A stretch of DNA of 37,506 bases from a virus. Lineage: Duplodnaviria; Heunggongvirae; Uroviricota; Caudoviricetes. Made by a program: the position numbers. This document shows positions 27,001-30,000 of the stretch, piece by piece; the stretch's first letter is position 1, and each line of letters begins with the position of its first letter. The DNA is taken from the IMG/VR virus record IMGVR_UViG_2802429245_000007. One strand, 5' to 3'.

Positions 27001-30000
27001 TTTCCACATAAAAACCCATATTCCACAATTCGCCATCAAGGTCCCCAAGAGCTTCATCTTGCTCCTGTATATCTTTAGAAAAAATAAAATCATCTGCTAA
27101 AAGAAAACCCGTAAAATTATCACCACCAAAATGAGTATTATAATCAACCTCATCATAAAAATATCTCACTATAGCCTTCAGCAAGTTATGTACTTCAAGT
27201 GATTCAGTATCTAAACAAATATTATCTGAACCACAAAAAGCACAAGTACTATGAATGTTTTGCAAACGCATTAAGTTTTTAATATTTGATTCGATAATAT
27301 GATTTTCGCAGATAAACATTATAATCCCCCTTAATTACCCCTTAGATACTAATTATTGCCGTTTGGGACTGCGCGCGCAATCGTATCCCCGCCACGCCTA
27401 CCCGCTTTATGCAGTGGTTTTCATGCGCCTGCATGACATATGCAACAGCCCGCCAGCTCAGGCTGGCATCAGCGAAAACGATCGTCATACTATCATGCGA
27501 TCTCATGCGCCATATGAAGTTTTCCTGACACAGCCTTGGGTTGGGATAACACCTAACTCAGGAAGATTTTTTGTGTGTTTGTAACCCGCACCTAGAGTTT
27601 ACCAATCCATGTTTGCGGCATTATCCATCTCACGAGTTAAGTAATTAACCAATAAGTCCATATTCCTTTCTGATTTCATCGCCTCCGCATAGGTTCCATT
27701 AGTTACGTAAGATAGTATTAAAGGACATCCAGATTCAATATAAATTTTTGCTGGGGACAGTTCTCCCTGCCACAAATTTTCAAGAAAATCGTTAATTAAT
27801 TGCATTGCTTCAGGTGCCAAAAAATGCACACCATTTCCAAACTTGAAACGTTCTTTATTTTCTCGATGAGGCAGCAATAGTGGCACAGCCCCTACACTTG
27901 AGTGAAATTCCAATGCTTGCCCATCCTTACCGAAGGCGCCATGGGCTACAAAATTACGCACCTGTTTTCTGAGTATAAGTAAACGATCATAGAATGATTT
28001 TAGACTGGAAGAGTTAATATCAATGGCTAATTTGAATTTCTCCCCCCATTCTTTTCCAACTTTATCAGCCACATCATTCCCATTTTTTATCTCACCCTTC
28101 AAGATTGCAATAAGAATGAAAACATGCTCGGTCCAATTGAAAAATGACTCAATTGCAGACGTTGCTAACCACATAGCCTCTCTTCGGAGTTCAATTATCT
28201 TATTTGATTGTTCAAAAGTGGATTGTAACAGGCTGAAAAAATTATCAGACTTAAACTCACTATCAACTTCCAGTTTAGACTCTTGGCCAGCAGCAACTTC
28301 ATCAAGCTTCTGTTTATATAGCTCTAAAAAATAGCAAAACCTATCATAAAGAGAATTAGCATTGTTATTAACATTTAGATTTGAAGTCTTTGCTGCATTG
28401 TCTGCAAGCGAGTCAAAAAATTTCGTAGCAGCTTTAACCCCTGCGCAAATATGTCTCAAAACAGTTTTAGCTTGCTCTATATCATCATCACTCTTGATAA
28501 ATATATCTAAACCAAGTTTACGATGTTCTATAATTACGACAGTCCCATCAATCCGGACTGGGATAGAAAAAGAAATCTTCTCATCAACCCCACGATTTTT
28601 AAATTTCAGTAAATCTACCAAAAGAAAATAAACGAGATAATACGGAGGTAATGAGTCTCCCAAACCCGAGCGCTTACCCCAAAAATATTCATCAAGCTCG
28701 GCAGACTCCATTGTCCCTATGACTCTTCGGACGCGTTCTTCAACTTTAGCCAGATCCATTCCCCACACCGCCTTTCAATATCACTTAAGGTATTACAGCC
28801 AATGACATCGATTAAATACAGCGTAGATAATAGGCAACTTGCTACTGTTTTCAAGGGCTTTCTGTTTCAATCCTTAGTTGACCTTGCTGACGCGAGAATC
28901 TAGTTCTCACGCCAGCAACGCCCCTGCTGCTAACCGGGAAGATCCATTACACGGTTATATTCATGGGCACGAATTTTCGCCATCAACTCATCAGTCAGCT
29001 CTGAAACCCACTGCAGAGCCAGCCCCTTCTCTTCATCACTACACTCACTAGCCGCTACAAGCTTAAGAAAAAAATCAATGCGCTGGAGCTTCAAAGACTC
29101 CAAAAAATAGTCCTGCATCTTTCCTCCTATGACACCAAAACAATACTGTATACATAACCACTGTTTATATTTACAGTATATAATAATCTTACTGATGTAA
29201 AACGTTTTTTTACGCTCATCAGCCTGATATGCCTGGTATTATTAAGAGCACGAATTGTTAACCCGCGTAATTAATACAGGTTCCGCCACTTGTCATCTTC
29301 CTGCAAACGCTGGTTCCGATAGAAGATACGCAGGCCTGCTCCTGACGGAATACTGCCGCCGCGAAGGAGTAAATCGACCTCTTTCTCGCTGCCATCAAAT
29401 CCTCTGGACCTCAGTTCATAGACGAGCTGCTGTCGCTGATGGTCTGTAATTCGCTGTTTGTAGTCTTTACGCCGTTTCGGTTTCACCTGGCGTAACCTTG
29501 CAGCCAGTTCCCGGCGCTCTTTTTTGCTCATACTGTGCAGGTAATCGTGCAACTCCTTGTCATTCATACGGGTAATATCCGTTCTGGAGTCCCCATCAGC
29601 TGATTTGTCTTTCCCTTGTTGGTTCAAATTTTCAGCAAGGGGACAGTTATTGCCACGAGTCCAAGGGGCGCAAGCGCCCTGGTCGGCTGCCGCCTCCTGA
29701 ACGTCAACGGCCTTACGAACCATTTTCCACTTCACGGCATGAGTGCAGATCTTGCCCTCTGCAATGGGTGACCAGATGCCATAAATACGAATGCCGTGAT
29801 CGCCATAGGCGGTCGGCTCTTCGTTAATTTCATAAGCGGTTCTGATGAGGTGATATTTGCGGGGAACCAGTACGCCGCCCTGCTTCATGATGTAGGTGGC
29901 AAAACAACCAGCATCAGCAGCAGCCAGGATGGCATCAAGGCGCGGGTTATCCAGTACCGGCGCACCTGCTTTTTTGTCGCCCTGTTGCCTTGCCGCCTGA

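What the first reader, a model, noticed from the sequence alone, without database searches (positions are those of the whole stretch)
27599..29176. Apparently SOS-controlled two-gene module (62-aa protein plus 389-aa HEPN-motif protein) between gene A and cos
Seen in sequence: a near-consensus LexA box (CTGT-N8-ACAG, 29161-29176) sits just upstream of a 62-aa gene with a strong RBS, followed on the same strand by a 389-aa AT-rich ORF carrying R-N-x3-H-G (RKQVRNFVAHGAFG), then the cos-like site. Established: in phage 186 this position holds the LexA-repressed tum antirepressor operon, and in P2 the region next to cos holds the tin/old exclusion genes; R-x4-6-H is the catalytic signature of HEPN RNases found in abortive-infection and toxin proteins. 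Inference: a DNA-damage-induced module pairing a small regulator with a HEPN-type effector, either a defence/exclusion system released on induction or an addiction-type pair. No named family is recognisable by eye.
Basis: partly seen in the sequence, partly recalled or inferred. Interest (0 to 1): 0.85.

Follow-up and report, generated by a model that had tools for sequence, protein, structure and literature searches.

The report
Prophage SOS switch beside HEPN cargo gene
The stretch holds two unrelated things side by side: the already known DNA-damage switch of a Fels-2/186-type prophage (a LexA-repressed promoter and a small antirepressor gene), and a horizontally acquired, unannotated gene for a HEPN-fold, probably RNA-cutting, protein sitting in a known phage-defence hotspot.

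Summary
The two genes are not a module.

**LexA box (29159-29178).** It overlaps the -10 of a TTTACA-17-TACTGT promoter. This is the same layout as the experimentally defined p95 promoter of phage 186. The box is invariant in Fels-2 and SopEPhi.

**The 62-aa gene.** It is the ortholog (92% identity) of Fels-2 STM2728, the tumA half of the split Tum antirepressor. It is a core gene, found in more than 1,000 E. coli genomes ahead of many different downstream genes.

**The 386/389-aa gene.**
- It is a separate, AT-rich cargo segment (28880-27515) in the known gpA-cos-gpQ defence hotspot of P2-like phages.
- It has no Pfam, PADLOC, PHROG or NCBIfam family.
- R-N-x3-H-G is invariant down to 21% identity.
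- Across 85 other loci it has no conserved neighbour and no LexA box.
- At least four independent loci put it in or beside type I restriction-modification operons.

**Most likely reading.** A stand-alone HEPN abortive-infection or exclusion RNase. SOS read-through from the tum promoter into it is plausible but unproven.

The switch is already known; the HEPN family is a new member of a known kind.

The parts
29196..29201 (-). -35 hexamer TTTACA of the tum (p95-type) promoter
   Evidence: Read. There are 17 nt to the -10 TACTGT. The layout matches annotated 186 p95, TTCACA-18-TACTGT. The surrounding GTTTTACAT is invariant in all six sequences aligned.
29159..29178 (-). LexA operator TACTGTAAATATAAACAGTG; its first six bases are the -10 hexamer
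   Evidence: Only match in the window and 17/20 to consensus, with 0 of 100 shuffles reaching it. Invariant in Fels-2 and SopEPhi. Positionally equivalent to the annotated LexA site of 186 and to the PSP3 sequence.
29144..29163 (-). Possible second, weaker LexA-like site (GTG-N10-CAG) overlapping the first box
   Evidence: Read. Largely conserved in the six-sequence alignment: both half-sites (CAGTGGTTAT and TACAGTA) are invariant, but the three central bases vary. Not tested further.
28930..29118 (-). tumA-type antirepressor gene (62 aa), with RBS AGGAGG at 29123-29128
   Evidence: 92% identical to Fels-2 STM2728. Matches phrog_698 at 4.7e-36, and also phrog_8554 and phrog_1993, the PSP3 TumA family. 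The N-terminal part of 186 Tum hits phrog_698 at 2.4e-5. PSP3 tumA is annotated 'UV induction of prophage'. Supported by PMC3121763.
28884..28918 (-). Conserved 15-bp hairpin without a U-tract, at the place where relatives end their DinI-like tumB gene
   Evidence: RNA fold of the spacer gives -54.5 kcal/mol, z -3.0. It is homologous to the hairpin after dinI in E. coli relatives. It was not scored as an intrinsic terminator.
27515..28880 (-). Cargo segment absent from Fels-2-type relatives (the HEPN gene plus 121 nt upstream of the ATG at 28759 and 84 nt downstream)
   Evidence: blastn break points against L002-L005. Present at 99.5% identity or more in 10 of 5,426 E. coli genomes. GC 0.34-0.39.
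28827..28854 (-). Promoter-like site TTGAAA-16-TATTAT inside the cargo segment, upstream of the HEPN gene
   Evidence: 10/12 match. The number of such sites in the region is no higher than in shuffles, so this is only a candidate.
27599..28759 (-). HEPN-fold protein gene (386 aa from the ATG at 28759; 389 aa from the GTG at 28768)
27938..27958 (-). R-N-F-V-A-H-G, the Rx4H motif (R268, N269, H273, G274 in 386-aa numbering)
   Evidence: Invariant in 54 sequences and in members only 21-25% identical. It overlaps the weak Csx1_HEPN match to residues 219-279.
27382..27400 (-). cos cohesive-end sequence GGCGTGGCGGGGATACGAT
   Evidence: 16/19 identical to the annotated 186 cos, with the same following TGCGCGC. 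The flanking 27514-27370 is shared with Fels-2-type phages at 83-85%.
35485..36060 (+). 186/PSP3/Fels-2-type CI repressor, the presumed target of TumA
   Evidence: tblastn gives 34% identity to PSP3 CI, 38% to Fels-2 CI and 54% to an E. coli P2-like phage CI. Apl-like and CII-like ORFs lie beside it.

Best explanation
The stretch holds two independent units.

**(a) The induction switch of a Fels-2/186-type prophage.** In the lysogen, LexA sits on an operator that overlaps the -10 of a p95-type promoter. After DNA damage, LexA cleaves itself and the promoter fires. The 62-aa TumA-type antirepressor is made and inactivates the 186-type CI repressor, starting lytic growth. This prophage has lost the DinI-like second half of the operon (tumB).

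**(b) A horizontally acquired single-gene cargo.** It lies directly downstream, in the gpA-cos slot that P2-like phages use for exclusion and defence genes. The protein has an N-terminal alpha/beta domain and a helical HEPN domain with an invariant R-N-x3-H-G site.

Most likely it is a stand-alone abortive-infection or exclusion RNase. It would be held inactive by its own N-terminal part and switched on by an infecting phage. It may be transcribed from its own promoter-like site and receive extra read-through from the tum promoter during SOS.

**Shown here or in cited work:** the operator and promoter architecture, the TumA orthology, the cargo boundaries, the HEPN fold and motif, and the lack of a conserved partner gene.

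**Inferred:** RNase activity, anti-phage function, the trigger, and SOS read-through into the cargo.
For: **Switch**
- The operator is unique in the window and is not reached by chance.
- It is invariant across Fels-2 and SopEPhi.
- Its layout equals that of annotated 186 p95 and PSP3.
- The 62-aa protein is 92% identical to Fels-2 STM2728.
- Reciprocal profile hits link it to the Tum N-terminal part and to TumA.
- Published work states that Fels-2 and PSP3 split tum into an upstream antirepressor and a downstream DinI homologue (PMC3121763).
- All three genes of the STM2726-STM2727-STM2728 operon rose after mutagen treatment (fold change 14.8 for the gene with the lowest p-value, 2.6 for the gene with the highest), each with p<0.05 (PMC2225428).
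- A 186-type CI, Apl and CII are present.

**Cargo**
- Break points lie at 28880 and 27515, and the segment has low GC.
- It occurs in only 10 of 5,426 E. coli genomes, always in this slot.
- The slot is the published gpA-gpQ defence hotspot (PMC9122126; PMC13586616).
- R268, N269, H273 and G274 are invariant down to 21% identity.
- There are weak Csx1/CARF-HEPN profile hits.

**Stand-alone status**
- The commonest neighbour family occurs in only 5 of 85 loci, and it is an integrase.

**Defence context**
- The Klebsiella homologue lies 13 nt after hsdR.
- Type I R-M genes flank homologues in L069, L095 and L103.
- Another homologue lies beside HipBA, PIN and QueC-like genes.

**Read-through**
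- No terminator-like site lies on the minus strand between tumA and the cargo.
- In 186 the SOS transcript continues through a partial terminator into orf97, which blocks 186 infection when expressed from a plasmid.
Against: - No experiment on this protein or any homologue was found. Accession WP_032248694 appears in no held paper.
- No sequence-level link to a named HEPN family reaches significance: Pfam best E is 0.04, and PADLOC, NCBIfam, PHROG and PDB sequence searches gave nothing.
- Foldseek found nothing in PDB or BFVD.
- The loop after the motif (residues 275-309) is conserved but modelled at low confidence.
- The promoter-like site is no more than chance gives.
- The 161-nt untranslated spacer with a strong hairpin could stop or process the SOS transcript.
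- TumA is 92% conserved while CI is only 38% identical to that of Fels-2, so the CI-TumA match is assumed, not shown.
Confidence: 0.62

Rival explanations
1. The 62-aa protein and the HEPN protein form one SOS-released module: a small regulator or antitoxin paired with a HEPN toxin (an addiction or defence pair).
Against: The 62-aa gene is present in 1,102 E. coli genomes ahead of many other cargoes, and the HEPN gene is with it in only 10. It is the Fels-2 STM2728 / TumA ortholog. No TumA homologue and no conserved small ORF accompanies the HEPN gene in 85 other loci. The Klebsiella homologue sits directly behind hsdR. The homology break with relatives falls between the two genes.
Confidence: 0.04
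2. The HEPN gene is an ordinary lysogen-expressed defence gene driven only by its own promoter. The neighbouring SOS promoter is irrelevant to it.
For: The cargo segment brings 121 nt of its own upstream DNA (ahead of the ATG at 28759), with a 10/12 promoter-like site. None of 85 homologues elsewhere has a gamma-type LexA box. A 15-bp hairpin separates it from tumA. Defence genes in this hotspot act in the lysogen (PMC9122126).
Against: The hairpin lacks a U-tract and was not scored as a terminator. In Fels-2 the first gene after the DinI homologue was induced together with the tum genes. In 186 the SOS transcript reaches orf97.
Confidence: 0.25
3. The HEPN gene and the RES-domain gene on the other side of cos (27319..26165) are a co-selected two-effector unit.
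For: A 67%-identical HEPN gene and a 77%-identical RES gene lie adjacent in the same order in a non-P2 island (L017/L018). Three sphingomonad loci have a different 238-aa RES protein 38 nt upstream of the HEPN homologue.
Against: The same HEPN cargo is found with other cos-Q cargoes: 355 aa + STAS + 162 aa in L001, and GmrSD in L105. The same RES gene is found with other A-cos cargo. tblastn with the window's 384-aa RES protein found no homologue in the 80 loci from the genome scan; the 238-aa sphingomonad RES is a different, unrelated-by-BLAST RES family. The L017 spacer keeps a decayed cos flank (score 19 against 9.9 +/- 1.25 in shuffles), so that pair looks like a relic of a P2-type hotspot rather than an operon.
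Confidence: 0.07
4. The protein is a HEPN-like helical protein without nuclease activity, for example a binding or regulatory protein that serves the phage's own lytic cycle after induction.
Against: R-N-x3-H-G is strictly invariant at 21% identity, which is typical of catalytic HEPN sites. The gene is absent from all 50,697 phage records searched and from almost all relatives of this prophage, so it is not part of the lytic programme. Most homologues are outside prophages.
Confidence: 0.08

Closest known systems
Phage 186 SOS operon (p95, LexA site, tum, t95a, orf97)
   Same: It lies after the replicase gene A and before cos. The LexA box forms the -10 (TACTGT), with a -35 hexamer 17-18 nt upstream. 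The first gene product is related to the N-terminal antirepressor part of Tum. A non-essential exclusion-type gene follows on the same strand.
   Different: Tum in 186 is one 146-aa protein fused to a DinI-like half, whereas here there is only a 62-aa N-terminal-type protein and no DinI-like gene. 186 has a canonical partial terminator t95a, whereas here there is a hairpin without a U-tract. The downstream gene is unrelated to orf97 (phrog_3403).
Split tum of Fels-2 (STM2728 / STM2726.1) and PSP3 (tumA / tumB)
   Same: The 62-aa protein is 92% identical to STM2728, and the promoter-operator DNA is almost identical. PSP3 tumA is annotated as needed for UV induction.
   Different: The DinI-like tumB gene is missing. 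The homology break lies in the last ~20 codons of tumA and resumes at the hairpin that normally follows tumB.
P2 tin/old locus and the gpA-gpQ defence hotspot of P2-like phages (Rousset et al. 2022; Moura de Sousa et al. 2026)
   Same: It occupies the same cos-proximal slot, with rapid swapping of cargo between near-identical prophages. The cargo is a short, AT-rich, single-gene system.
   Different: This cargo is not detected by PADLOC and belongs to no named defence family. No anti-phage test of it was found.
[not shown]
   Same: It has a HEPN helical core with Rx4H and an extra N-terminal domain on the same chain. It lies on a mobile element and is AT-rich.
   Different: There is no reverse-transcriptase-like domain as in AbiA, no sequence similarity to any of these proteins, and no antitoxin partner as for RnlA/LsoA.
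Type I R-M-linked anticodon nucleases PrrC / RloC
   Same: Some homologues sit inside or directly after hsd operons, as prrC does. The nuclease domains of PrrC and RloC are classed as HEPN (Anantharaman et al. 2013, cited from knowledge).
   Different: No ATPase N-domain was detected by Pfam or NCBIfam. Most homologues are not next to hsd genes, and in this window there is no R-M system.
HEPN-MNT type VII toxin-antitoxin pairs
   Different: Those toxins are about 130 aa and always have an adjacent MNT partner. This protein is 386 aa with no conserved neighbour.

Membership tests
LexA-repressed Tum antirepressor operon of 186/Fels-2/PSP3-type phages | LexA operator overlapping the core promoter, located between gene A and cos | tested here: met
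   17/20 match to consensus and unique in the window. It overlaps the -10 as in annotated 186 p95. Invariant in relatives.
LexA-repressed Tum antirepressor operon of 186/Fels-2/PSP3-type phages | First gene homologous to the Tum N-terminal part / TumA | tested here: met
   92% identical to Fels-2 STM2728. Reciprocal PHROG hits: window protein to phrog_1993 at 0.0025 and phrog_8554 at 3.7e-8; 186 Tum to phrog_698 at 2.4e-5. Pairwise BLASTP to 186 Tum or PSP3 TumA alone finds nothing.
LexA-repressed Tum antirepressor operon of 186/Fels-2/PSP3-type phages | DinI-like second half (the C-terminal part of Tum, or tumB) | tested here: not met
   No DinI-like ORF lies between 28930 and 27599. Relatives have it directly after the 62-aa gene.
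LexA-repressed Tum antirepressor operon of 186/Fels-2/PSP3-type phages | Cognate 186-type CI repressor in the same prophage | tested here: met
   A 191-aa CI at 35485-36060 is 34-54% identical to the CI of PSP3, Fels-2 and other P2-like phages.
LexA-repressed Tum antirepressor operon of 186/Fels-2/PSP3-type phages | LexA binding, SOS induction and antirepression of CI | not testable with these tools
   Indirect evidence only: the orthologous Fels-2 operon is induced by the mutagen MX, and published statements cover PSP3 and Fels-2.
HEPN superfamily | Conserved Rx4-6H motif | tested here: met
   R268-N-x3-H273-G is invariant in 54 sequences and in members 21-25% identical.
HEPN superfamily | All-alpha HEPN helical bundle fold | tested here: met
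   [not shown]
HEPN superfamily | Sequence membership in a curated HEPN family | tested here: not met
   The best hit is Csx1_HEPN at E 0.04, below the cut-off. No hit is shared among 54 members or 10 divergent members.
HEPN superfamily | Metal-independent RNase activity that depends on R and H | not testable with these tools
   Needs biochemistry.
Toxin-antitoxin / addiction pair | Conserved adjacent partner gene across homologues | tested here: not met
   The largest neighbour cluster covers 5 of 85 loci and is an integrase. Only 8 of 77 loci have an upstream same-strand ORF within 60 nt, and those ORFs are of unrelated kinds.
Cargo of the P2-like gpA-gpQ defence hotspot | Located between gpA and gpQ next to cos, and variable between closely related prophages | tested here: met
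   with the hotspot definition from PMC9122126 and PMC13586616.
Cargo of the P2-like gpA-gpQ defence hotspot | Recognised defence system | tested here: not met
   No PADLOC-DB v2 model matches the window protein. Only scattered weak hits appear in 1-2 of 54 members.
Cargo of the P2-like gpA-gpQ defence hotspot | Protection against phage infection | not testable with these tools
   Needs plaque assays.
PrrC/RloC-type R-M-linked anticodon nuclease | N-terminal ABC-type ATPase domain and obligatory hsd linkage | tested here: not met
   No ATPase domain by Pfam or NCBIfam. hsd genes lie near only about 4-5 of 87 loci.

The most novel reading that the evidence does not exclude
The HEPN RNase is deliberately wired to the prophage's induction signal. 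Read-through from the LexA/tum promoter would raise it exactly when the lysogen commits to lysis, so that it guards the induced cell against superinfecting phages or P4-type satellites, or helps shut down the host.

A related possibility is that the HEPN-cos-RES arrangement, which recurs at about 70% identity in a non-P2 island, is a co-selected pair of RNA- and NAD-targeting effectors.
Probability: 0.15. Interest if true: 0.65.

Novelty: new member of a known kind. Interest (0 to 1): 0.4.

Why it matters
The SOS switch adds nothing new. It is the Fels-2/PSP3 split-tum arrangement, minus the DinI-like gene.

The value lies in the cargo. It belongs to a widespread family: about 1,000 clusters at 50% identity and 233 species-level genomes, spread across Proteobacteria, Nitrospirota, Acidobacteriota, Chloroflexota, Bacteroidota and Saccharibacteria. 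The family has no Pfam, PADLOC, PHROG or NCBIfam model, yet it shows a confident HEPN-like fold, an invariant Rx4H site and no partner gene. It now also has two kinds of defence context: the validated P2 hotspot and type I R-M operons.

That makes it a cheap, well-defined candidate for a new single-gene abortive-infection system. It also offers a test of whether cargo in the tum-proximal slot of P2-like phages is co-induced with the prophage.

Tried and rejected
**Searches that found nothing**
- Pfam, PADLOC, PHROGs and NCBIfam on the HEPN protein, on all 54 alignment members and on 10 divergent members gave no family above threshold.
- A profile search of PDB sequences returned only a chance septin hit, E 3.1.
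- Foldseek against PDB and BFVD gave nothing at E<=0.001. The afdb50 library was not available.
- tblastn of the HEPN protein against 50,697 phage records gave no match.
- Rfam on 26000-29400 gave no RNA family.
- The accession WP_032248694 appears in no held paper.
- Bunny et al. 2002 (PMC151935), the primary source for the Fels-2 lexA phenotype, is not held, so it is cited only through PMC3121763.

**Weak or negative comparisons**
- Pairwise BLASTP of the 62-aa protein against 186 Tum and PSP3 TumA found no alignment. The link rests on profile hits and on position.
- The intrinsic-terminator scan found none on the minus strand.
- The promoter scan did not flag the p95-type promoter, because TACTGT matches only 3/6 of the -10 consensus. 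I identified it by comparison with 186.

**Ideas considered and rejected**
- A TA pair with the 62-aa protein.
- PrrC-like membership.
- An obligatory HEPN-RES operon.

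Full report
**What is in the sequence**

Reading the minus strand from 31712 down to 26110 gives this order:
- the P2-type replicase gene A (31712..29271)
- a 152-nt intergenic region
- a 62-aa ORF (29118..28930) behind AGGAGG
- a 161-nt spacer
- a 389-aa ORF (28768..27599; more likely 386 aa from the ATG at 28759, as NCBI annotates the E. 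coli relative and as in the 386-aa database protein P0001)
- a cos site
- a 384-aa RES-domain ORF (27319..26165)
- the 3' end of the portal gene Q, on the other strand

The cos sequence GGCGTGGCGGGGATACGAT (27400..27382) matches 16 of 19 bases of the annotated 186 cohesive end and is followed by the same TGCGCGC. The immunity region further on holds a 191-aa 186/PSP3/Fels-2-type CI with Apl-like and CII-like ORFs. The window is therefore a Fels-2/186-like member of the Peduoviridae.

**The LexA box**

- CTGT-N8-ACAG occurs once in the window, at 29161-29176. On its own this is unremarkable: 0.39 are expected, and 35 of 100 shuffles have one.
- The full 20-mer at 29159-29178 matches the E. coli consensus at 17/20, which none of 100 shuffles reached.
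- Its position is more telling. TTTACA (29201..29196), a 17-nt spacer, then TACTGT (29178..29173) make the first six bases of the box the -10 hexamer.
- The annotated p95 promoter of phage 186 is built the same way: TTCACA, 18 nt, TACTGT, with the LexA site starting at the -10. PSP3 has the same box.
- In an alignment with three E. coli prophages, Fels-2 and SopEPhi, the segment ATATACTGTAA.TATAAACAGTGGTTAT is invariant, although the SopEPhi flanks have diverged.
- A second, weaker GTG-N10-CAG site overlaps the first at 29163..29144. Its two half-sites are invariant in that alignment although the three central bases vary. I did not test it further.

**The 62-aa gene is the prophage's antirepressor, not a partner of the large gene**

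- It is 92% identical to Fels-2 STM2728 and 84% identical to SopEPhi orf10. It belongs to phrog_698 (E 4.7e-36).
- BLASTP sees no similarity to 186 Tum or PSP3 TumA, but profiles do.
  - The window protein hits phrog_8554 (3.7e-8) and phrog_1993 (0.0025), the family of PSP3 TumA (2.7e-32).
  - Residues 7-44 of 186 Tum hit phrog_698 (2.4e-5).
- The PSP3 record annotates tumA as 'similar to 5' end 186 tum; UV induction of prophage' and tumB as the DinI-like half.
- Lemire et al. state that Fels-2 and PSP3 have tum split by a stop codon, and that the upstream PSP3 gene encodes the antirepressor activity (PMC3121763).
- In Salmonella TA100 (Fels-2+), all three genes of STM2726-STM2727-STM2728 were induced by the mutagen MX (fold change 14.8 for the gene with the lowest p-value, 2.6 for the gene with the highest; every gene p<0.05). 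STM2727 was listed among LexA-regulon genes (PMC2225428).
- The gene with its promoter occurs in 1,102 of 5,426 complete E. coli genomes, mostly at 90-95% identity. It is normally followed by a DinI-like gene and then by varied cargo: DUF6236, PIN, a reverse-strand ORF and others.

SOS control of this gene is thus well supported by orthology, and it is already known biology.

**What differs in this prophage**

The DinI-like tumB gene is missing. Homology with Fels-2-type relatives ends at 28942, inside the last codons of tumA. It resumes briefly at 28919-28881 and then only at 27514-27370, the cos flank.

The 28919-28881 piece is the hairpin that follows the DinI-like gene in E. coli relatives. 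In the window it is a 15-bp stem at 28918..28884. It has no U-tract and was not scored as a terminator. This contrasts with the canonical partial terminator t95a of 186.

The segment 28880..27515 is therefore the cargo. It consists of the large ORF, 121 nt upstream of the ATG at 28759 that contain a TTGAAA-16-TATTAT site at 28854..28827 (10/12, though such sites are no more frequent here than in shuffles), and 84 nt downstream. GC is 0.34-0.39, against about 0.53 in the phage core.

**The cargo protein**

*Family size and annotation*
- It has 1,040 homologues at E<=1e-3 in the 90% clusters, none with a Pfam domain.
- It has 1,001 representatives at 50% identity and relatives in 233 of 185,579 species genomes from many phyla.
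- Pfam, PADLOC, PHROGs and NCBIfam give nothing above threshold for the window protein, for 54 aligned members or for 10 divergent members.
- The only hints are Csx1_HEPN at E 0.04 over residues 219-279 and CARF-HEPN models in two members.

*Conserved residues*
- In 54 sequences (41-67% identical), R268, N269, H273, G274, F276 and G277 are invariant. So are T210-E211, W238, K241, H286-S287, G290-P293 and the C-terminal M-D.
- In members only 21-25% identical, R268, N269, H273, G274, E211, W238, K241, P293 and M384-D385 remain invariant.

*Structure*
- AlphaFold2 with this alignment gives pLDDT 88.3 and pTM 0.82.
- The model has an N-terminal alpha/beta domain (about residues 1-130), two long helices, and a helical C-terminal part carrying the motif on helix 251-275.
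- The conserved loop 275-309 is modelled poorly.

**Is it part of a system?**

I fetched 80 loci from the genome collection plus seven more from other contexts, called ORFs within 4 kb and clustered them.
- The commonest neighbour family is a tyrosine integrase, in 5 of 85 loci. Next are a serine recombinase (4) and IS elements.
- No TumA homologue and no homologue of the window's RES protein was found in the 80 loci from the genome scan; the only RES hit was in L017, one of the seven added loci.
- No gamma-type LexA box lies within 500 nt upstream of any of the 85 homologues.

The gene is thus a stand-alone unit, and SOS control is a property of this phage slot rather than of the family.

Recurrent defence contexts do appear:
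- The Klebsiella homologue (61% identical) starts 13 nt after hsdR of a complete hsdMSR operon next to an integrase.
- hsd genes flank homologues in a Geobacteraceae, a Marinobacter and a Seongchinamella genome.
- A Thalassospira copy follows hipBA in an island with PIN and QueC-like genes.

In E. coli the cargo is rare. Ten of 5,426 genomes carry it at 99.5% identity or more, always in this prophage slot right after tumA. It is absent from 50,697 phage records.

The slot is the published gpA-gpQ hotspot that holds tin and old in P2 and 1,650 different arrangements in E. coli (PMC9122126; PMC13586616).

**How it most likely works**

*Shown or published*
1. LexA occupies the operator at the -10 of the tum promoter.
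2. DNA damage removes LexA.
3. TumA is made and, by homology with 186 and PSP3, inactivates CI.

*Inferred*
1. The HEPN protein is a self-contained abortive-infection or exclusion RNase. Its N-terminal part keeps the Rx4H site inactive until a phage cue arrives.
2. It can be expressed without harm and without a partner. I infer this because the Klebsiella copy lies 13 nt after hsdR on the same strand, so it is probably co-transcribed, although no transcript data were examined.
3. In this prophage it may be transcribed both from its own upstream region and by read-through from the tum promoter.

Two precedents support read-through. The 186 SOS transcript reaches orf97, a gene that blocks 186 infection when expressed from a plasmid. 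In Fels-2, the first gene after the DinI homologue is induced with the tum genes.

**Rivals**

- *Regulator-effector or addiction pair with the 62-aa protein.* Contradicted by the distribution data. I put it at about 0.04.
- *A purely lysogen-expressed defence gene with no SOS input.* This remains quite possible (about 0.25) and differs from my best model only in the read-through step.
- *A HEPN-RES unit.* It is suggested by L017/L018, where a 67%-identical HEPN gene and a 77%-identical RES gene are adjacent in an island with RadC, YfjT and DUF932 genes.
  - Against it, that spacer retains a decayed cos flank with the cohesive-end core deleted (local score 19 against 9.9 +/- 1.25 in shuffles).
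  - The same HEPN cargo also occurs with GmrSD or a STAS-containing trio beyond cos.
  - The same RES gene occurs with other A-cos cargo.
  - I read L017/L018 as a relic of a P2-type hotspot.
- *A non-catalytic HEPN-like protein.* Unlikely given the invariant motif.

**Novelty and verdict**

The LexA-tumA part is already known. The cargo is an unannotated but widespread HEPN-fold family found in a validated defence hotspot and in type I R-M operons. That makes it a new member of a known kind: single-protein HEPN defence candidates.

Its interpretation is partly right (SOS operator, HEPN, exclusion slot) and wrong on the central point that the two genes form a module. Interest is moderate at 0.4: nothing here would surprise a specialist, but the gene is a clean, cheap candidate for experimental test.

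Noticed in passing
window 26165-27319 (-): A 384-aa RES-domain protein (Pfam RES 4e-18 over residues 213-344; the N-terminal ~200 aa are unannotated and carry a CxxC) occupies the second cargo slot, between cos and portal gene Q. NCBI names the E. coli ortholog 'RES family NAD+ phosphorylase'. It has no adjacent Xre-type antitoxin gene.
   Followed up: partly
L017 2548-5277 and L018 1817-4546 (Logan contigs): A 67%-identical HEPN gene and a 77%-identical RES gene lie adjacent in the same order in a non-P2 island (RadC, YfjT, EcsC, DUF932). The spacer keeps a decayed cos flank with the 12-nt cohesive-end core deleted. This suggests a P2-type hotspot segment was transplanted into another element.
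   Followed up: partly
window 29144-29163 (-): A second LexA-like site (GTG-N10-CAG) overlaps the main box by a few bases. Its half-sites are invariant in Fels-2, SopEPhi and E. coli relatives, though the central bases vary. It may give cooperative LexA binding, as at colicin promoters.
   Followed up: no
window 28930-29118 versus 35485-36060: TumA is 92% identical to that of Fels-2, while the CI repressor is only 38% identical. If TumA really binds CI, it must recognise a conserved surface or act across immunity types.
   Followed up: no
window 28881-28942 (-): The DinI-like tumB gene found in Fels-2, SopEPhi, PSP3 and most E. coli relatives is precisely missing. The hairpin that normally follows it now follows tumA. 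The last ~20 codons of tumA differ from the Fels-2 type, probably a recombination scar.
   Followed up: partly
window 27599-28759 (-), protein residues 275-309 and 383-386: The family has a strongly conserved loop (F276, G277, H286, S287, G290-P293) that AlphaFold models at pLDDT below 50. It also has an invariant extreme C-terminus, N-M-D-W. Both are unexplained and could be an interface or an autoinhibitory element.
   Followed up: no
L028, L030, L031 at 7247-7963: In three sphingomonad loci, a 238-aa RES-domain protein (identified by eye from its sequence; not scanned against Pfam) ends 38 nt upstream of the HEPN homologue on the same strand, inside what looks like a conjugative element. 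This is a second, independent RES-HEPN adjacency.
   Followed up: partly
L001 5070-6948; L105 6501-8282: Prophages carrying the same HEPN cargo have other genes in the cos-Q slot: a 355-aa protein plus a STAS-like protein plus a 162-aa protein in one, and a GmrSD type IV restriction enzyme in the other. The two slots on either side of cos shuffle independently.
   Followed up: partly
window 27535-27562 (+): A terminator-like hairpin followed by a T-run lies on the plus strand just past the 3' end of the HEPN gene. It points towards the gene and might block antisense transcription coming from the cos side.
   Followed up: no
window 31709-33624 (-): Upstream of gene A lie a 336-aa ORF (31709..32719) and a 302-aa ORF (32716..33624); I scanned neither against any family library. 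Relatives encode a Dam-type DNA adenine methylase directly upstream of gene A, and 186 has a PAPS-reductase-like orf84 there, so this window may combine both accessory genes.
   Followed up: no
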